DNA from: Candidatus Moraniibacteriota bacterium
Lineage (GTDB): Bacteria > Patescibacteriota > Minisyncoccia > Moranbacterales > UBA1568
Length of the DNA stretch: 64,000 nucleotides
NCBI GenBank assembly: GCA_030648835.1
Contig: JAUSGT010000002.1
Span: 437,458-501,457, forward strand
Direction of reading: 5' to 3'
Made by a program: the position numbers and the translations under genes. The notes under the pieces were generated by a model. That model was not told the origin of the DNA. It was given only the letters and a program-made list of their open reading frames with translations, and searched no databases. Of the stretch, positions 3,194-54,562 are shown in pieces (within the stretch, counting starts at the first letter, position 1; each line of letters begins with the position of its first letter).

Positions 3194-5203
3194 ATGCCAC
3201 GTCACATTCAAAACGATATCACATTTTTTGCCAAGACCAATTTCCGCAACCAGGAAAAGGTCTTTGGTATCAAGACTGATGATCGTCGCCGGCATATGTA
3301 TGTCATCGGCAAGACGGGTATGGGCAAGACAAACTTGCTTGAGAATTTGGCTATCCAGGATATCCAGAAGGGCCACGGCATCGCTTTTCTTGATCCGCAC
3401 GGCGATACTGCGGAAAAGCTTATCAAAGCCATTCCCGCCTCGCGTATCAACGATGTCATCTATCTTAATCCGTCTGATCAGGAGTTTCCGATTGCGTTCA
3501 ACGTGATGGAAAAAGTTGAGCCTGAGTATCGGCATCTGGTGTGTTCTGGACTTGTGGGTGTGTTCAAAAAAATCTGGGCGGACTCTTGGGGCCCACGTCT
3601 CGAATATATTTTGCGAAACGCCATCTTGGCGCTTCTTGAATATCCGGGGAGCACGCTTCTCGGCGTGACGCGTATCCTGGTGGACAAGTCATACCGGGCG
3701 CGGGTGGTGGAGAAAATCACCGATCCGGTGGTGCGCAGTTTCTGGGTGGATGAATTTTCTATGTGGAACGATCGCGTACTACAGGAAGTCATTTCTCCGA
3801 TTCAGAACAAAGTCGGGCAATTCCTTTCCAGTTCTCTCATCAGAAACATCGTCGGTCAGACAGTGTCGTCATTCAATATTCGGGAAGTGATGGATCAGAA
3901 AAAAATTCTTATCATCAACCTTTCCAAAGGGCGGATTGGCGAAGACAACGGAGCGCTGCTTGGGGCTATGATGATTACCAAAATCCAATTGGCCGCGATG
4001 GGACGGGTGGATATTCCCGAGGACGAACGCAAAGATTTTTATCTGTATGTCGATGAATTTCAGAATTTCGCGACGGAGTCATTCGCGAATATTCTCTCTG
4101 AAGCGCGCAAGTACCATCTGAACCTGATTCTCGCCAATCAGTACGTGACGCAAATCGCTGAGGAAGTGCGTGACGCCATCTTCGGTAACGCGGGGAGTAT
4201 CATCTCATTTCGGGTGGGAGCGATGGATGCGGAATTTTTGGAAAAAGAATTTGAACCGGTGTTCATGATGAACGATATCGTAAATCTTGAGAAGTATCAT
4301 ATTTATCTGAAACTGATGATTGACGGAATCGCGGGGGATGCCTTTAGTGCGACAACACTTCCGCCCATCAAACTTGAAGACGCCGGCAACGAAGCAAAGA
4401 TCATCAATAGTTCCCGTGAGCGCTACTCCTCGAGTAAAGTCGAGGTAGAAGACAAGATCCGCCGGTGGAGCGGGATGCTGACGTCGGAGGAACGCCAAGC
4501 CATCGTTGATGAAAAACAGATGAGCACACCGCAAGCGGTATCGCAGGTAGCAACATTGCCGGGTCAGTCGGCCCCACCGCGCAGACCGGCAGCCGAGAGA
4601 GGTCAGATTTCCAAGAAAAGTGAAGCCGTGGTCGGTGCGCCTGTCGCACATTTGCCGAAAGAACGGAAGGAAAAAATAGCGGTGGAAAAAGTTGTGTCGC
4701 CTCCTCGTCAGTCGGCATCAACGGTTGTTTCCGATGCATCTTGGGAAAAAGAAGTAGTACCTAAAAAAGAGGAAGAAAAAACTCCGGAGCAAACAGGCGT
4801 GGCAAAGACACCCGTTTTTGCAACAGAGGAAAAGAAATTGTACAAGGCGTTTTGCGCGACGTGCGGAGTTGAGATCCAGGTGCCTTTTGTGCCGGATGGC
4901 AAGCGTCCGACATTCTGCAAAGATTGCCTGCGTGATTATCAGCGTTCCGTGGCCAAGGTAAAAAATGAGGTGGATGCGAAAAATGCGGCAGCCACTCTTT
5001 CTCCAAAGCTTTCGGTTTTATCCACGCCAGCGCCACGGGAGCGTGTCGCTCAGCATAAAACCTATGTTTCGACGGATGTACCGATGTCACTTTCGCAGAT
5101 CCAGCACGTGGGGCCCAAGAAGTTCAAGCCACTCCGCAATCGTCCCTCGGTCAACCTTGACGAAGTCCGCGCCCTCATCGATGCCAATAGGAAAGAGAGC
5201 TAA
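3194..5203 (+). CDS. TraD/VirD4/TraG-type (type IV coupling protein-like) P-loop ATPase with a low-complexity linker and a C-terminal CxxC...CxxC zinc ribbon
   Basis: Walker A IGKTGMGKT; an LDPHGD motif; Walker B YLYVDEFQNF; LILANQ. A C-terminal S/P/E/K-rich region is followed by CATCGVEIQVPFVPDGKRPTFCKDC. Confidence 0.7.
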   Translation: MPRHIQNDITFFAKTNFRNQEKVFGIKTDDRRRHMYVIGKTGMGKTNLLENLAIQDIQKGHGIAFLDPHGDTAEKLIKAIPASRINDVIYLNPSDQEFPIAFNVMEKVEPEYRHLVCSGLVGVFKKIWADSWGPRLEYILRNAILALLEYPGSTLLGVTRILVDKSYRARVVEKITDPVVRSFWVDEFSMWNDRVLQEVISPIQNKVGQFLSSSLIRNIVGQTVSSFNIREVMDQKKILIINLSKGRIGEDNGALLGAMMITKIQLAAMGRVDIPEDERKDFYLYVDEFQNFATESFANILSEARKYHLNLILANQYVTQIAEEVRDAIFGNAGSIISFRVGAMDAEFLEKEFEPVFMMNDIVNLEKYHIYLKLMIDGIAGDAFSATTLPPIKLEDAGNEAKIINSSRERYSSSKVEVEDKIRRWSGMLTSEERQAIVDEKQMSTPQAVSQVATLPGQSAPPRRPAAERGQISKKSEAVVGAPVAHLPKERKEKIAVEKVVSPPRQSASTVVSDASWEKEVVPKKEEEKTPEQTGVAKTPVFATEEKKLYKAFCATCGVEIQVPFVPDGKRPTFCKDCLRDYQRSVAKVKNEVDAKNAAATLSPKLSVLSTPAPRERVAQHKTYVSTDVPMSLSQIQHVGPKKFKPLRNRPSVNLDEVRALIDANRKES

Positions 5204-5407: not shown

Positions 5408-5809
5408 ATGGCACAACGCAGATGGTGGCTCAGGATGGTGGTAGTGGCGGTTCTCATCCTTATCGGTTGGGTGCTCTATGTTTCTTCCAAGCAGGTCGAG
5501 AGAAACCGTCGTATTCAGGAAGAAATCGGGACACTGGAAACCGAAGCCGCCAAAATCAGCCGTGAGAATGAGACGCTTTCCGAAAGGATCAGTTATTTTG
5601 CTTCGGATGACTTTCGCGAACAGGAGGCCAAAAAAAAGCTCGGGCTGAAAAAAACGGAAGAAACAGTTGTGGAAGTGAAGCCGGCGCCGGGATACGAGAA
5701 TGGAGGAGAAGCTTCTCGGGGAGAGTCGCAAGTATCATCCAAAAACAGCGAGGATGAGAGCGCGGCGAATTATAAAAAATGGTGGAAAGTATTTTTTGGG
5801 GTCCGTTGA
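5408..5809 (+). CDS. ftsB: Septum formation initiator (FtsB/DivIC family)
   Basis: N-terminal TM helix, a coiled-coil region and a conserved DFREQEAKKKLGL-type motif. Confidence 0.6.
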   Translation: MAQRRWWLRMVVVAVLILIGWVLYVSSKQVERNRRIQEEIGTLETEAAKISRENETLSERISYFASDDFREQEAKKKLGLKKTEETVVEVKPAPGYENGGEASRGESQVSSKNSEDESAANYKKWWKVFFGVR

Positions 5810-5818
5810 GATATACAT

Positions 5819-6877
5819 ATGTCCGATACCATACAAAAACTTTTAAAAAAGGTGCATGTGAGTACACTCGTTTATGGGGGGCTCATTGTTCTTGTTTTCC
5901 TTCTTGCGACCAGCCTTATAGCGGTATATACCGTTTCCAAGTCGAATGTTTTTGTTGATCGTTTGAAAAGCGCCTTACCGTATCCGATAGCGATTGTCAG
6001 CTATCAGGATGGTATTACCTATCGGACCCTCTCCAAAAATATGGCCTCTGTCAAGCGTTTCTATGAAGCGCAGGATTTTGGGCAAATCGGTTTGCGCGTG
6101 GACTTTTCTACGGCAGAGGGGCAGAAGCGTTTCAAAGTACGTGAGAAAGAAGTGTTGAACAAGATGATCGAGGATGCCGCCATCAAGCGTTTGGCGAATG
6201 AGCGGGGCATAGAGGTGAGCCAAGACGAAGCGGTACAGGGTGTTTTACGGAAGCTGGAGGAGTACGGCAGTGGCGAAGAAGTAAAGAAAGATCTCCTGCG
6301 TTTGTATGGTTGGACACTTGCGGATTTTGAAGAAAAAGTCGTGATGCCGAGTCTCTATCAGGAGAAATTGCAAGAGAGTTTTGTCAAAGAAGTAGATGTC
6401 GCATCCAATGCAAAAGGCAAAATACGTTTGGCCCAGGATGCTCTTCGCACCAGTAAGCCGTTTGCCGATGTTGCCAAGCAGTATTCGGAGGGGCAGACGG
6501 GGGCAGAGGGAGGATCTTTGGGCTGGTTTGCGCTTGAAGATTTAACTCCGGAACTCCGCCCAAGTGTGATACTTCAGAAAGTCGGAGTGCCGGGAGACGT
6601 AGTCGAGAGTAATTTGGGATTTCACATTCTCTTGGTGGAAGAAATCAAGAAAGAAGACAGTCGGCAGTTGTACCGCTTGAGGCAGATTTTCACGCGTAAG
6701 ACGACTTTTGCCGATTTTCTTTCGGAAAAGATGCATGGATTATCGATACTCATTCTGTCTCCGGAATACCAGTGGGATGCAAGAGAAGCGCGCGTGGAAT
6801 TCAGAAGACAGGAATTGCGCGATTTTGAAAAAAATCTTTTTGAGAAGGCAGACGGAGATGCAGCCTTCTTCTTTTAA
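5819..6877 (+). CDS. Membrane-anchored parvulin-type peptidyl-prolyl cis-trans isomerase (PrsA/SurA-like)
   Basis: N-terminal TM helix and the PpiC signature GGSLGWFALEDL...VVESNLGFHILLVEE. Confidence 0.75.
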   Translation: MSDTIQKLLKKVHVSTLVYGGLIVLVFLLATSLIAVYTVSKSNVFVDRLKSALPYPIAIVSYQDGITYRTLSKNMASVKRFYEAQDFGQIGLRVDFSTAEGQKRFKVREKEVLNKMIEDAAIKRLANERGIEVSQDEAVQGVLRKLEEYGSGEEVKKDLLRLYGWTLADFEEKVVMPSLYQEKLQESFVKEVDVASNAKGKIRLAQDALRTSKPFADVAKQYSEGQTGAEGGSLGWFALEDLTPELRPSVILQKVGVPGDVVESNLGFHILLVEEIKKEDSRQLYRLRQIFTRKTTFADFLSEKMHGLSILILSPEYQWDAREARVEFRRQELRDFEKNLFEKADGDAAFFF

Positions 6878-51477: not shown

Positions 51478-53154
51478 ATGAGACAACACATAAAAAAACG
51501 CTTCCATTTTGCGGGAGTACTCTTGCTTGGCTTGATTTGCGCAATCATTGCCTATCCACAAGCGGTCAAATCCATTTCACCGCTTTTTCGTGTTGTGGAA
51601 AAAATGAAAATCAACGAAGGATTGGATTTGCAAGGGGGTATTCACTTGGAATACAAGGCGGATATGTCACAGGTTCCAAGTGAAAAGGTGGACGCCGCTC
51701 TTTCCGCCGCGGAAGCCGTGATCGAACGAAGAGTGAATGCTTTTGGTGTGGGTGAACCACTCGTGCAGCTTTCGCGGTCGGGGACGGAGAGGCGTATCAT
51801 TGTCGAATTGCCGGGTATCAAAGACATCGAACAAGCCAAGAAAATGATCAAAGAAACTCCGTTTCTTGAATTTCGTGAACCGGCCGGTCCGGAAGCGGAA
51901 AAGCAATTTGACGTTTTGAATCAAGAGACCAAAAGAGAGGCAGAAGCTATACTTGAGCTGGCGAAGAAGGGTGAAGATTTTGCCGCTCTGGCCAAAGAAT
52001 GGAGCGAAGATCCGGGATCCAAAGACAGGGGTGGCGATCTGGATTTTGCCAAGAAGGGTACATTCGTGCCTGAGTTTGATACGGTTATTTTCGATCCCAA
52101 TTTCAAATCGGGAGAAGTGAGTCCAAATCTTGTGGAGAGCCAATTCGGCTGGCATATCATCAAAAAAATCGAAGAACGCGGTGAAGGTAACAACAGGGAA
52201 GTCCGCTCCGCCCATATTCTTTTTACGAAACGCACGCTTGATCAGTACCCGGATTTGAAATGGGTGGTGACCGGTTTGACTGGCAAAAATTTGAAGAGCG
52301 CTACCGTTGATTATCAAAGTCAGGGAGTGGGCTCACCACAGGTAGCGCTTCAATTCGACAGTGAGGGGACAAAATTGTTTGCGGAAATTACTAAACGCAA
52401 TCTTGGCAAGCCGGTGGCCATACTTCTCGACAAGGAAATTATCAGCCAGCCAACTGTTCAAAACGAAATCGTGGGAGGCCAGGCAGTCATTACCGGCAAT
52501 TTCACAATGCAACAGGCAAATGATCTCGTGAAACGTCTCAACGAGGGTGCTCTCCCGGTCCCGATCACTTTGGTATCGCAACAGAGTGTGGATGCCAGTC
52601 TTGGCCAGAGTGCGCTCCAAAAGAGCTTGTTCGCGGGTCTCGTCGGTCTTGGGGCAGTGGCTGTATTTATGATTCTCTATTATCGTTTGCTCGGTGTCGT
52701 GGCAGTTGTGGCACTTCTTCTGTATACGGCGATGCTCCTCACTATTTTCAAACTCTCTGTCTTTACTCCCTTCGCGATTACGGTGACTTTACCGGGTATC
52801 GCCGGTTTCATCTTGTCGATCGGTATTGCCGTCGATGCCAACGTGCTTATTTTCGAGCGCACGCGCGAGGAACTTTCATACGGTAAAACTGTTATCAAAT
52901 CTTTGGTGGAAGGGTTTCGCCGGGCTTGGCCCAGTATTCGTGATGGGCATGTTTCGACGCTTATCACAACGGTAATCCTTATGGCTTTTGGTACCGGATT
53001 CGTAAAGGGATTCGCGGTTATTCTGGCCTTAGGTGTGCTCCTCTCGCTTTTCACCGCGGTGGTGTTGGTGCGAGTCTCGGTTATGTTTGTCGCCGGTGAT
53101 TGGATGGAGCGCCATCCGAAACTTTTGGTCTCACCAAAGAAATTGTTAGAATAA
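51478..53154 (+). CDS. secD: Protein translocase subunit SecD with an inserted parvulin-like PPIase signature in the first periplasmic domain
   Basis: SecD motifs GLDLQGGIHL and GIAVDANVLIFERTREEL with six C-terminal TM helices. Residues ~150-260 read EDFAALAKEWSEDPGSKDRGGDLDFAKKGTFVPEFDTVIFDP...GEVSPNLVESQFGWHIIKK. Confidence 0.85.
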   Translation: MRQHIKKRFHFAGVLLLGLICAIIAYPQAVKSISPLFRVVEKMKINEGLDLQGGIHLEYKADMSQVPSEKVDAALSAAEAVIERRVNAFGVGEPLVQLSRSGTERRIIVELPGIKDIEQAKKMIKETPFLEFREPAGPEAEKQFDVLNQETKREAEAILELAKKGEDFAALAKEWSEDPGSKDRGGDLDFAKKGTFVPEFDTVIFDPNFKSGEVSPNLVESQFGWHIIKKIEERGEGNNREVRSAHILFTKRTLDQYPDLKWVVTGLTGKNLKSATVDYQSQGVGSPQVALQFDSEGTKLFAEITKRNLGKPVAILLDKEIISQPTVQNEIVGGQAVITGNFTMQQANDLVKRLNEGALPVPITLVSQQSVDASLGQSALQKSLFAGLVGLGAVAVFMILYYRLLGVVAVVALLLYTAMLLTIFKLSVFTPFAITVTLPGIAGFILSIGIAVDANVLIFERTREELSYGKTVIKSLVEGFRRAWPSIRDGHVSTLITTVILMAFGTGFVKGFAVILALGVLLSLFTAVVLVRVSVMFVAGDWMERHPKLLVSPKKLLE

Positions 53155-53286: not shown

Positions 53287-54183
53287 ATGTTACAGATTAT
53301 TCAGAAAAGAAAATATGCGTATCTGTTTTCCGGGATACTGACCACGGCGAGTGTGGTTTTGCTTCTGACCTGGGGGCTCAACTTCGGTATCGACTTCAAA
53401 GGAGGGACACTTATGGAAGTGCAATTCTCCCAAAATCCTGTACCGCGAGTGTCCGAAGTGGAAAAGTCTTTTGCGGATCTCTCGCTTCAGAGTCTGACCG
53501 TGCAGGCTACGGACAACCGCGGGATGTTGTTTCGTTATCTCGCGTCCGATGAGAATGCCAATGAACAGGTGCTCCAAAAATTGAAATCCTTTGATCCCAA
53601 TGTCGTGCAGTTGCGCACGGACTTTATCGGTGGCTCGGTCTCCGACCAGATCAAAAGGAATGCGTTGACCGGCATCGTACTTTCCGTGCTTTGCATCGCT
53701 CTCTATATTGCTTGGGCGTTTCGTCGTGTGTCCGGAGCGGTGACGTCATGGGAATACGGACTGGGGGCGGTTATCGCGCTGGCGCATGATATTCTTGTGG
53801 TCATCGGTATCTTTGTGCTTTTGGGAAGGTATTATAATATTGAGGTAGGGGTACCGTTTATCGCCGCGCTTTTGACCATCTTGGGTTACAGTGTGAATGA
53901 CACCATCGTCGTGTATGACCGGGTGCGCGAGAATCTGCTCCGCTCGCAGAGAAAAGAAGATTTTGAAATCACCGTCAATCGTTCGCTCAACGAAACACTC
54001 GGCCGTTCTATCAACACCTCGCTCACGGTTATTATCACTCTCTTCGCCATTACGATTTTCGGGGGAGACAGCATCCGTTACTTTGGTTTGGCGCTTCTCA
54101 TCGGAGTAATCTTTGGAACATACTCATCCATTTATATCGCGTCCGCTTTGCTCGTCACTCGCTATAGGATGAAGACAAAATGA
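53287..54183 (+). CDS. secF: Protein translocase subunit SecF
   Basis: GIDFKGGTLMEV motif and six TM helices with SecD/SecF family signatures. Confidence 0.85.
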   Translation: MLQIIQKRKYAYLFSGILTTASVVLLLTWGLNFGIDFKGGTLMEVQFSQNPVPRVSEVEKSFADLSLQSLTVQATDNRGMLFRYLASDENANEQVLQKLKSFDPNVVQLRTDFIGGSVSDQIKRNALTGIVLSVLCIALYIAWAFRRVSGAVTSWEYGLGAVIALAHDILVVIGIFVLLGRYYNIEVGVPFIAALLTILGYSVNDTIVVYDRVRENLLRSQRKEDFEITVNRSLNETLGRSINTSLTVIITLFAITIFGGDSIRYFGLALLIGVIFGTYSSIYIASALLVTRYRMKTK

Positions 54184-54274: not shown

Positions 54275-54562
54275 ATGTGGAATCCATTCAACAAAAATAA
54301 GGACGATAAAAAAGAAGAACTGCCGTCCATTCCCGGCATGCCTGATATGAAGGGTATGAATATGTTCCAGCGTTTCGCGATGCGCCGCTTGATGAAAATG
54401 AGTCCGGCTGATCGCGAGAAGGCGATGAAAAAAGCCCTGACTCCCAAGAATATAGAGAAAAACAAGGGTGAAATTCTCTCGTCACTGGAAGCGATGCGTA
54501 AAGCCGGACAGATTTCCGATGACCAATATAGGCTTACCAAAGCCAAATTGGGACTCAAATGA
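54275..54562 (+). CDS. Small protein with a SHOCT-like C-terminal motif
   Basis: EILSSLEAMRKAGQISDDQYRLTKAKLGL resembles the SHOCT short C-terminal domain. Weak. Confidence 0.3.
   Translation: MWNPFNKNKDDKKEELPSIPGMPDMKGMNMFQRFAMRRLMKMSPADREKAMKKALTPKNIEKNKGEILSSLEAMRKAGQISDDQYRLTKAKLGLK

What the first reader, a model, noticed from the sequence alone, without database searches (positions are those of the whole stretch)
51900..52260. SecD carries a parvulin (PpiC) rotamase signature inside its first periplasmic domain
Between the SecD head motif (GLDLQGGIHL) and the membrane domain there is a segment with all the hallmarks of a PpiC/parvulin PPIase: ...EDFAALAKEWSEDPGSKDRGGDLDFAKKGTFVPEFDTVIFDP..GEVSPNLVESQFGWHIIKK..., then EVRSAHILF. 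A free-standing membrane-anchored parvulin is also encoded at 5819-6877, so this is an additional fused copy. A translocon subunit with a built-in periplasmic foldase would couple export and folding, which is an unusual domain architecture.
Basis: partly seen in the sequence, partly recalled or inferred. Interest (0 to 1): 0.55.

Follow-up and report, generated by a model that had tools for sequence, protein, structure and literature searches.

The report
SecD with built-in permuted parvulin foldase
The protein-export subunit SecD of this Moranbacteria (CPR/Patescibacteria) genome really does carry a conserved prolyl-isomerase (parvulin) domain with a rearranged strand order inside its outward-facing domain, which hard-wires a folding helper to the export machine that other bacteria recruit as a separate protein.

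Summary
The secD ORF (51478-53154, 558 aa) has a PpiC/parvulin domain at aa 148-250. Pfam Rotamase_3 scores E 5e-22, 79 bits against a cut-off of 22.5. The domain lies between the SecD_1st (P1 base) and SecDF_P1_head domains, a net insert of about 90 aa relative to Thermus SecDF.

It is not an assembly artefact. The same architecture is in more than 120 Moranbacteria clusters, in 80 of 80 fetched GTDB species loci across Patescibacteria, and in 57 of the best 150 cluster representatives.

The domain is circularly permuted: the strand EVRSAHILF (beta1, carrying the catalytic His) follows beta4 instead of opening the domain. Profile-rearrangement tests with controls and an AlphaFold model (pLDDT about 90) support this.

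All four catalytic-tetrad residues (H246, D178, S/T221, H226) are conserved. The free-standing SurA/PrsA-like parvulin at 5819-6877 is also permuted but has lost two of them.

The most likely function is a translocon-tethered foldase/chaperone. It would be the covalent counterpart of the PpiD-SecD, SurA-SecDF and Mpn444-SecD contacts.

I found no paper that describes this fusion or a permuted parvulin. I rate it a new variant of a known kind, of moderately high interest. PPIase activity is untested.

The parts
51478..53154 (+). secD ORF (558 aa plus stop): protein translocase subunit SecD with an inserted parvulin domain
   Evidence: ORF list. TIGR01129 secD scores 373 bits, above its cut-off. 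There is a 100% identical protein annotated SecD in a Candidatus Moranbacteria MAG.
51496..51567 (+). N-terminal transmembrane helix TM1 (aa ~7-30), which places the following domain outside the cytoplasm
   Evidence: Hydropathy. The AF2 model has a helix at aa 3-25.
51607..51882 (+). Sec_GG motif and the N-terminal part of the P1 base (aa 44-135)
   Evidence: Pfam Sec_GG at aa 44-64 and SecD_1st at aa 77-135. This stretch aligns to Thermus SecDF residues 29-117.
51883..51918 (+). Variable linker (aa 136-147). In the model it is the N-terminal extension of parvulin helix alpha1. There is no beta strand here.
   Evidence: AF2 DSSP shows one helix at aa 138-163 directly after base strand aa 130-135. 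This is the least conserved segment, with 48% identity.
51919..52185 (+). Parvulin (PpiC-type PPIase) core from alpha1 to beta4 (aa 148-236). It contains D178 (52009-52011), S221 (52138-52140) and H226 (52153-52155).
   Evidence: Rotamase_3 E 5e-22, profile positions 33-115 of 116. pLDDT is 84-93. D178 and H226 are invariant and position 221 is S or T in 57 homologs. These residues map to Pin1 C113, S154 and H157.
52198..52227 (+). Displaced parvulin strand beta1 (aa 241-250, EVRSAHILFT) with catalytic His246 (52213-52215). It forms a hairpin with beta4, which makes the domain a circular permutant.
   Evidence: AF2 strand at aa 241-250 with pLDDT about 93. H246-I-L is invariant in alignments A1 and A2. 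Placing this segment in front of the core extends the Pfam match to profile position 1 and adds 1.8-5.3 bits, whereas the control segments do not. It aligns to Pin1 H59.
52228..52272 (+). Variable linker from the parvulin back into P1 (aa 251-265)
   Evidence: 48% identity. The linker length varies among relatives.
52273..52560 (+). SecDF P1 head subdomain (aa 266-361)
   Evidence: Pfam SecDF_P1_head E 1.5e-31, profile positions 20-114 of 114. It aligns to Thermus SecDF from residue 160.
52561..53151 (+). SecD membrane domain (TM2-TM6), including the VDANVLIFER motif. D453 aligns to the proton-path Asp340 of Thermus SecDF.
   Evidence: SecD_SecF_C. Residue-by-residue alignment to 3aqp. D453 is invariant.
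53287..54183 (+). secF, the partner subunit, immediately downstream
   Evidence: TIGR00966 SecF scores 284 bits, above its cut-off.
5819..6877 (+). Free-standing membrane-anchored SurA/PrsA/PpiD-like chaperone. Its parvulin domain is also permuted but lacks two tetrad residues (G225 and Q289).
   Evidence: Pfam SurA_N_3 plus Rotamase. BLASTP is collinear with the SecD insert through the beta4-beta1 hairpin. Q289 is invariant and G225 nearly invariant. The AF2 model has pLDDT 86.5, with strand aa 282-293 after beta4. Foldseek matches SurA and PrsA.

Best explanation
This is a genuine secD gene of a Candidatus Moranbacteria (Patescibacteria/CPR) genome. A complete parvulin-type peptidyl-prolyl isomerase domain is inserted in its extracytoplasmic P1 domain, on the chain segment that leads from the P1 base to the mobile P1 head.

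The inserted domain is circularly permuted. It starts with helix alpha1, runs through beta4, and only then supplies the central strand beta1 (EVRSAHILF, with the first catalytic His) as a hairpin. The chain therefore enters and leaves the domain at neighbouring points.

The catalytic tetrad is conserved (H246, D178, S/T221, H226, equivalent to Pin1 H59, C113, S154, H157), and so is the proline pocket (L188, F196, F200). The domain lacks Pin1's phosphate-binding loop, so it resembles the non-phospho-specific Par10/PrsA/SurA class.

Inferred mechanism: SecDF sits next to the SecYEG exit, and its P1 head captures and pulls emerging unfolded chains using the proton-motive force. A PPIase/holdase domain attached at the base-to-head connection would meet each substrate as it leaves the channel. 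There it would catalyse prolyl isomerisation and/or shield the chain. This replaces, by a covalent link, the recruitment of separate parvulin chaperones seen in other bacteria (PpiD, SurA, PrsA, Mpn444).

What is shown: the domain identity, insertion point, conservation and active-site residues. The permuted topology is supported by sequence tests and by a predicted model, not by a solved structure. What is inferred: enzymatic activity and coupling to translocation.
For: Domain calls with large margins.

The architecture base-parvulin-head-TM is found in:
- 120 of 120 best homolog clusters, all carrying PF00639/PF13616 plus SecD domains;
- 80 of 80 loci from GTDB species representatives, titled Moraniibacteriota, Parcubacteria, Kuenenbacteria, Komeilibacteria, Uhrbacteria, Elulimicrobium or Patescibacteria;
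- 57 of the best 150 representatives of 50%-identity clusters.

Tetrad conservation: invariant in 57 Moranbacteria sequences and in 14 diverse sequences of 40-60% identity. It is complete in 203 of 241 single-unit SecDs collected.

Permutation:
- The native order matches Rotamase profile positions 15-96 only.
- Moving aa 237-253 in front of the core gives positions 1-96 and raises the score from 82.9 to 88.2 bits (Rotamase_3) and from 76.4 to 78.2 bits (Rotamase).
- A reversed segment or an unrelated strand gives no extension.
- The rearranged sequence aligns end to end with the Pin1 PPIase domain, and from beta1 onward with Par10, with all catalytic residues in register.
- AF2 gives its highest confidence (pLDDT 84-93) to aa 140-250, with a beta4 (aa 224-234) and beta1 (aa 241-250) hairpin and no strand before alpha1.

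Other points:
- The insert has the same GC content as the rest of the gene.
- The parvulin core is under constraint: 67% identity against 48% in the linkers.
- The free paralog has fixed substitutions at two tetrad positions, whereas the SecD copy has not.

Functional precedent for parvulin chaperones acting at SecD:
- PpiD photo-crosslinks to Asp359 of the E. coli SecD P1 head, and PpiD and SecD/F act cooperatively (PMC7793623).
- AlphaFold places the SurA parvulin domains on the SecDF P1 head (PMC9987972).
- The Mycoplasma parvulin lipoprotein Mpn444 crosslinks to SecD (bioRxiv 10.1101/2024.09.05.611430).
Against: No biochemical data exist for any member, so PPIase activity is inferred from residues alone. 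Some parvulin domains act only as binding modules: the parvulin domain of PpiD is inactive (PMC9797188).

I could not inspect model coordinates. The strand order 2-1-4-3 and the position of the domain relative to the P1 head and the SecY exit are therefore not verified. pTM for the whole model is only 0.50.

The score gain in the rearrangement test is modest (about 2-5 bits).

Relatives exist in which the inserted unit has degenerated (P0295 and P0297, and unit A of the two-unit forms). Catalysis by the permuted unit is therefore not indispensable in every lineage.
Confidence: 0.78

Rival explanations
1. The inserted parvulin is a non-catalytic module. It enlarges the substrate-binding or docking surface of the P1 head (holdase or adaptor, like the parvulin domain of PpiD or SurA P1), and prolyl isomerisation plays no role.
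For: Inactive parvulin domains that serve as binding modules are well documented, for example PpiD (PMC9797188). Related SecDs carry degenerate units without the histidines (P0295, P0297, and unit A of the two-unit forms). This shows the fold can be kept in SecD without the tetrad.
Against: In this gene and in 203 of 241 single-unit relatives all four tetrad residues are kept. The proline-pocket residues are present in this gene. The free paralog in the same genome has lost two tetrad residues. Where the permuted unit is degenerate in two-unit forms, a second unit with an intact tetrad is present. This pattern argues that one active site per SecD is under selection.
Confidence: 0.17
2. The apparent fusion is an artefact: a chimeric assembly, a frameshift-joined pair of ORFs, or a recent accidental insertion without function.
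For: The sequence comes from a metagenome-assembled genome.
Against: The ORF is uninterrupted. An identical protein lies on a 635 kb contig, and there are hundreds of independent homologs from NCBI, JGI, ENA and Logan. 80 of 80 species-level loci have the same order of parts. Composition is uniform across the insert. Constraint on the insert is domain-like.
Confidence: 0.01
3. The segment is only the canonical SecD P1 head or hinge with chance similarity to parvulins.
For: None found.
Against: Rotamase_3 scores 79 bits against a cut-off of 22.5. The P1 head profile begins after the segment. Thermus SecDF has only 42 residues where this protein has 132. SurA, PrsA and Par10 chains hit at 1e-9 to 1e-15.
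Confidence: 0.01

Closest known systems
Canonical SecDF (Thermus thermophilus 3AQP/5YHF, Deinococcus 5XAN, E. coli SecD)
   Same: It shares the Sec_GG motif, P1 base and head, an RND-like membrane domain with the conserved Asp (D453, equivalent to Tt D340), and an adjacent secF. Sequence and fold matches are strong.
   Different: Canonical proteins have about 42 residues between the base strand and the head where this one has 132, including a whole PPIase domain. Here SecD and SecF are separate genes.
PpiD (with YfgM) at the E. coli/Vibrio Sec translocon
   Same: PpiD is a membrane-anchored, parvulin-containing chaperone that meets substrates at the periplasmic exit. It crosslinks to the SecD P1 head and cooperates with SecD/F (PMC7793623, PMC9643414).
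   Different: PpiD is a separate protein with its own TM anchor and a SurA-like chaperone domain, and its parvulin is catalytically inactive. Here the parvulin is covalently inside SecD, is permuted, and keeps the catalytic residues.
SurA parvulin domains docking on the SecDF P1 head
   Same: Parvulin domains are predicted to contact the P1 head of SecDF in the extended form. EM shows SurA at the periplasmic domains of the holo-translocon (PMC9987972). SurA P2 is the best PDB sequence match to the insert.
   Different: SurA is soluble, binds transiently and has the canonical strand order. It belongs to the outer-membrane protein pathway, which the Patescibacteria, generally considered monoderm (established knowledge, not tested here), would not have.
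PrsA of Firmicutes and Mpn444/Mpn436 of Mycoplasma
   Same: These are extracytoplasmic parvulin foldases of monoderm or wall-less bacteria acting on newly exported proteins. Mpn444 crosslinks to SecD (bioRxiv 10.1101/2024.09.05.611430; PMC12445088).
   Different: They are lipoproteins with their own chaperone domains, linked to SecD non-covalently if at all, and with the canonical parvulin order.
Par10/PpiC and Pin1 PPIase domains (parvulin fold)
   Same: They share the same fold elements and catalytic residues in register once the sequence is rearranged.
   Different: In those proteins beta1 is N-terminal. Here it follows beta4. The insert also lacks the phosphate-binding loop of Pin1.

Membership tests
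SecD (protein translocase subunit, TIGR01129) | Full-length match above the curated cut-off | tested here: met
   TIGR01129 scores 373.4 bits against a cut-off of 244.4, covering aa 48-533.
SecD (protein translocase subunit, TIGR01129) | TM1, then a large P1 domain with base and head, then a five-helix RND-like membrane domain | tested here: met
   Pfam Sec_GG, SecD_1st, SecDF_P1_head and SecD_SecF_C. Hydropathy. Foldseek matches 5xan and 3aqp at E 1e-25.
SecD (protein translocase subunit, TIGR01129) | Conserved membrane Asp of the proton path (Thermus D340) | tested here: met
   D453 in VDANVLIFER aligns to the D of avDgnvlsfer in 3aqp and is invariant in 57 homologs. That this Asp has a proton-path role is taken from the SecDF literature (established knowledge).
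SecD (protein translocase subunit, TIGR01129) | Partner SecF encoded alongside | tested here: met
   secF lies at 53287-54183. TIGR00966 scores 283.8 bits against a cut-off of 160.
SecD (protein translocase subunit, TIGR01129) | Stimulates PMF-dependent protein export | not testable with these tools
   Needs genetics or biochemistry.
Parvulin / PpiC-type PPIase (PF00639, PF13616) | Profile match above the gathering score | tested here: met
   79.1 and 72.3 bits against cut-offs of 22.5 and 21.7.
Parvulin / PpiC-type PPIase (PF00639, PF13616) | Catalytic tetrad His-Cys/Asp-Ser/Thr-His and hydrophobic proline pocket | tested here: met
   H246, D178, S221, H226, L188, F196 and F200 map to Pin1 H59, C113, S154, H157, L122, M130 and F134 (the Pin1 sequence was typed from my own knowledge). 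The tetrad residues are conserved.
Parvulin / PpiC-type PPIase (PF00639, PF13616) | Canonical order beta1-alpha1-alpha2-alpha3-beta2-alpha4-beta3-beta4 | tested here: not met
   beta1 follows beta4. The fold is the same but the connectivity is permuted, so it is a homolog with a variant topology.
Parvulin / PpiC-type PPIase (PF00639, PF13616) | Measurable cis-trans prolyl isomerase activity | not testable with these tools
   Needs an enzyme assay.
SurA/PrsA/PpiD-type parvulin chaperones | Parvulin domain embedded in a SurA_N-like N-/C-terminal chaperone domain | tested here: not met
   SecD has no SurA_N match. The host domain is SecD P1. The free protein at 5819-6877 does meet this feature: SurA_N_3 is below Pfam's cut-off (25.0 bits against 27.2), but Foldseek matches SurA and PrsA.

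The most novel reading that the evidence does not exclude
Patescibacteria have a lineage-typical, circularly permuted form of the parvulin fold. They have built a catalytically competent copy into the moving part of the SecDF motor. The proton-driven swing of P1 then carries an active prolyl isomerase along the emerging chain, so that pulling and folding catalysis are mechanically coupled. In these minimal cells this SecD-borne domain may be the main or only active extracytoplasmic parvulin, because the free SurA/PrsA-like paralog is catalytically degenerate. The two-unit forms, with a canonical parvulin nested in the beta4-beta1 loop of the permuted one, would record how the module evolved.
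Probability: 0.3. Interest if true: 0.75.

Novelty: new variant of a known kind. Interest (0 to 1): 0.6.

Why it matters
How exported proteins are handed from the Sec channel to folding factors is still argued from crosslinks, low-resolution EM and structure predictions (PpiD-SecD, SurA-SecDF, Mpn444-SecD). A fusion that is conserved across several candidate phyla of Patescibacteria is independent evolutionary ('Rosetta stone') evidence that a parvulin works at the SecD P1 domain. It also offers a single-polypeptide system in which that coupling could be studied structurally and biochemically.

The fusion also supplies what appears to be an undescribed natural circular permutant of the parvulin fold. 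That is useful for protein-evolution and domain-insertion studies. Finally, it flags a lineage marker of the cell-envelope biology of ultrasmall, largely uncultivated bacteria.

Tried and rejected
- **Whole-model Foldseek against PDB.** It returned only SecDF and RND pumps. Model coordinates cannot be cropped or read, so the strand order could not be checked geometrically.
- **AFDB50 fold search.** This was intended to reveal non-CPR carriers, but the library was unavailable.
- **The listing of cluster members on ten divergent representatives.** It gave no names, so taxonomy came from the genome-contig scan and from a second homolog search.
- **Nine literature searches.** The terms included SecD+parvulin, parvulin+circular permutation, circularly permuted+parvulin, SecDF+PpiC+fusion, SecD+Parcubacteria, SecD+PPIase domain and SecD+Patescibacteria terms. 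None found a description of the fusion or of a permuted parvulin. Absence in this library is not proof of absence.
- **Assembly or annotation artefact, recent foreign insertion, and chance similarity.** All were considered and rejected.
- **An N-terminal beta1 hidden in aa 136-147.** Considered and rejected. AF2 makes this stretch a helix continuous with alpha1, it is the least conserved stretch, and Pfam does not align it.
- **Occurrence outside Patescibacteria.** I did not establish this. One hit is labelled Bipolaricaulota and several are labelled Bdellovibrionales or Gammaproteobacteria. These are third-party (TPA) or environmental metagenome bins and are probably mislabelled.
Full report
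**1. Observation**

The flagged interval 51900-52260 lies inside one continuous + strand ORF, 51478-53154 (558 aa).

Pfam divides the protein as follows:
- Sec_GG, aa 44-64
- SecD_1st, aa 77-135
- Rotamase_3 / Rotamase, aa 148-233 (E 5e-22 and 6.6e-20; 79 and 72 bits against cut-offs of about 22)
- SecDF_P1_head, aa 266-361 (E 1.5e-31)
- SecD_SecF_C, aa 364-528

NCBIfam calls the protein SecD above its cut-off, and the next gene (53287-54183) SecF. Against PDB sequences, Thermus SecDF aligns to aa 41-134 and aa 267-554, while SurA, PrsA and Par10 parvulin domains align to aa 149-236. Thermus SecDF has 42 residues where this protein has 132, a net insert of about 90 aa.

**2. Not an artefact; distribution**

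An identical protein is annotated SecD in a Candidatus Moranbacteria MAG on a 635 kb contig. The best 120 homolog clusters (68-100% identity, from NCBI, JGI, ENA and Logan) all combine the rotamase and SecD Pfam domains.

A search of 1.84 billion cluster representatives with aa 100-300 found 57 SecD-context parvulins among the best 150 hits. These include SecD-SecF fusions of 877-1075 aa.

A scan of one genome per GTDB species returned 80 loci. All 80 carry the order base-parvulin-head-membrane domain (77 complete, 3 cut by contig ends). Their titles name Moraniibacteriota, Parcubacteria group, Kuenenbacteria, Komeilibacteria, Uhrbacteria, Elulimicrobium and 'Patescibacteria group'.

GC content is uniform across the insert. 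Within Moranbacteria the parvulin core is 67% identical to the window sequence, the linkers 48%, and the SecD parts 81-84%. The insert is thus an old, selected part of SecD in a large part of the CPR.

**3. Anatomy: a circularly permuted parvulin**

The Pfam matches start at profile position 33 of 116 (Rotamase_3) and 15 of 97 (Rotamase). The N-terminal strand beta1, which in all characterised parvulins carries the first catalytic histidine in a '..HIL.' motif, is therefore missing in front of the domain. Exactly such a motif, EVRSAHILF, follows the last strand (GWHIIKK) after a six-residue turn.

I tested this by moving aa 237-253 in front of aa 147-236. The match then covers Rotamase positions 1-96 and Rotamase_3 positions 14-115, and the scores rise to 78.2 and 88.2 bits. 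The core alone scores 76.4 and 82.9 bits. Two controls, the reversed segment and an unrelated strand in the same place, give 75.9-76.7 and 82.8-83.6 bits with no extension of coverage.

The rearranged sequence aligns end to end with the human Pin1 PPIase domain, and from beta1 onward with E. coli Par10. Both reference sequences were typed from my own knowledge. The mapping is:

| Pin1 | SecD |
|---|---|
| H59 | H246 |
| C113 | D178 |
| S154 | S221 |
| H157 | H226 |
| L122 | L188 |
| M130 | F196 |
| F134 | F200 |

The phosphate-binding loop of Pin1 is absent.

An AlphaFold2 model built on 57 homologs is most confident in this region (pLDDT 84-93 for aa 140-250). It shows one long helix at aa 138-163 directly after the base strand, with no strand in front. 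Then come the parvulin helices and strands, with beta4 (aa 224-234) and aa 241-250 forming a hairpin.

H246, D178 and H226 are invariant and position 221 is S or T in 57 Moranbacteria sequences. H226 and the H246-I-L motif are invariant in 14 diverse fused SecDs of 40-60% identity. Of 241 single-unit SecDs collected, 203 show the complete tetrad. Most of the rest are cases where the local alignment stopped before a long beta4-beta1 loop.

I could not read model coordinates. The sheet order therefore rests on secondary structure, confidence, conservation and the known 2-1-4-3 order of parvulin sheets (established knowledge).

**4. The second parvulin in the window**

The free-standing protein at 5819-6877 has an N-terminal TM helix, SurA_N_3 and Rotamase. 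It aligns collinearly with the SecD insert right through the beta4-beta1 hairpin: HILLVEEIKKEDSRQLYRLRQIFTRKT against HIIKKIEERGEGNNREVRSAHILFTKRT.

Its AF2 model (pLDDT 86.5) again has no strand before alpha1 and has a strand at aa 282-293 after beta4. Foldseek relates the whole protein to SurA, PrsA and LIC12922. In 51 homologs the position of the beta1 histidine is an invariant Gln (Q289), and the Cys/Asp position is a nearly invariant Gly (G225).

Both parvulins of this organism are therefore permuted, but only the SecD-borne one keeps a complete active site. This contrast is the best indirect argument that catalysis matters for the SecD copy.

**5. Variants elsewhere**

A second architecture has two units between the base and the head. 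It occurs in Gracilibacteria, Abawacabacteria, Peregrinibacteria (as SecDF fusions of about 1000-1100 aa), Magasanikbacteria, Kuenenbacteria and Buchananbacteria.

In 112 such proteins the first core has usually lost the beta4 histidine (mostly Asn). The strand that follows it has His in every pattern listed (the 12 commonest). The second core keeps Asp/Glu, Thr and His, and the last strand is mostly degenerate. In P0157 the second unit matches the full canonical Rotamase profile, positions 1-97, including the preceding His strand. In a four-way alignment it appears as an insertion between beta4 and the terminal beta1-like strand of the first unit.

The simplest reading is a canonical, active parvulin nested in the hairpin loop of a degenerate permuted one. 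This is an inference that I could not verify structurally.

Two further variants exist:
- SecDs with a single degenerate unit (P0295, P0297).
- Lipoproteins of about 350 aa consisting of a permuted parvulin plus a P1 head without a membrane domain (P0163, P0172, P0239).

**6. Mechanism**

SecDF is a cation-driven motor whose P1 head binds emerging polypeptide and swings to pull it out of SecYEG (summarised in PMC7793623). Parvulin chaperones are repeatedly found at this spot:
- PpiD photo-crosslinks to Asp359 in the E. coli SecD P1 head, and PpiD and SecD/F are both required, non-redundantly, for a late translocation step (PMC7793623).
- SurA localises to the periplasmic domains of the holo-translocon, and AlphaFold puts its parvulin domains on the P1 head (PMC9987972).
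- The Mycoplasma parvulin lipoprotein Mpn444 crosslinks to SecD (bioRxiv 10.1101/2024.09.05.611430).

The CPR protein makes this association covalent. My best explanation is a translocon-tethered foldase/holdase that acts on chains as they are captured by P1.

The main rival is a purely binding, non-catalytic module. It is disfavoured by the conservation pattern but not excluded. Artefact and chance similarity are excluded.

**7. Comparison and novelty**

The protein passes every sequence-testable criterion for SecD. These include the membrane Asp (D453, equivalent to Thermus D340) and an adjacent secF.

The insert is a homolog of parvulins, with profile scores and active site met. It fails the canonical strand order, so it is a topological variant of the fold.

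SecD is not a member of the SurA/PrsA/PpiD chaperone family, because it has no SurA_N-type domain, although it probably works like one.

Automated pipelines already record both Pfam domains on these proteins, and the source annotations that name them call them SecD (or SecF for some SecD-SecF fusions). Nine full-text searches found no paper that describes a SecD-parvulin fusion or a circularly permuted parvulin.

I rate it a new variant of a known kind, with interest 0.6. A Sec or chaperone specialist would find it notable and useful. The components and the idea of a translocon-associated PPIase are familiar, and function is still inferred.

Noticed in passing
window 5819-6877 (+): The free-standing SurA/PrsA-like parvulin chaperone is itself circularly permuted: a beta1-like strand at aa 282-293 follows beta4. 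It has an invariant Gln (Q289) and a near-invariant Gly (G225) at two catalytic-tetrad positions, so it is probably a non-catalytic chaperone.
   Followed up: yes
proteins P0157, P0138, P0140, P0188 and P0278-P0396 (not in the window): SecD and SecDF proteins of Gracilibacteria, Peregrinibacteria, Abawacabacteria, Magasanikbacteria, Kuenenbacteria and Buchananbacteria carry two parvulin units. The residue pattern and Pfam coverage suggest a canonical, active unit nested in the beta4-beta1 loop of a degenerate permuted unit.
   Followed up: partly
proteins P0163, P0172, P0239 (not in the window): These proteins of about 350 aa have a lipoprotein-type N-terminus, a permuted parvulin and a SecDF_P1_head domain but no membrane domain. 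They look like a stand-alone lipoprotein version of the SecD P1-parvulin module. I did not check whether they are complete genes.
   Followed up: partly
proteins P0295, P0297 (not in the window): These SecDs have one degenerate permuted parvulin-like unit without either histidine (Rotamase_3 only E 1e-3). The fold can therefore persist in SecD without the active site.
   Followed up: partly
window 3194-5203 (+): A 669-aa VirD4/TrwB-like coupling ATPase (TrwB_AAD_bind, TraG-D_C) with a C-terminal treble-clef zinc finger. It is followed by a DivIC/FtsB-like gene at 5408-5809 and then the free parvulin.
   Followed up: no
window 54275-54562 (+): A 95-aa Lys/Met-rich ORF lies between secF and tyrS. 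It has no Pfam match, and whether it is a real gene was not examined.
   Followed up: no
loci L007, L012, L018, L022, L054, L058 and others: Several third-party (TPA) MAGs titled 'uncultured Bdellovibrionales' or 'uncultured Gammaproteobacteria' carry a Moranbacteria/Parcubacteria-type SecD with the parvulin insert. The taxonomic labels of these bins are probably wrong.
   Followed up: no
window 1-64000: ARAGORN found no tRNA or tmRNA gene in the whole 64 kb window. Almost all long ORFs lie on the + strand.
   Followed up: no
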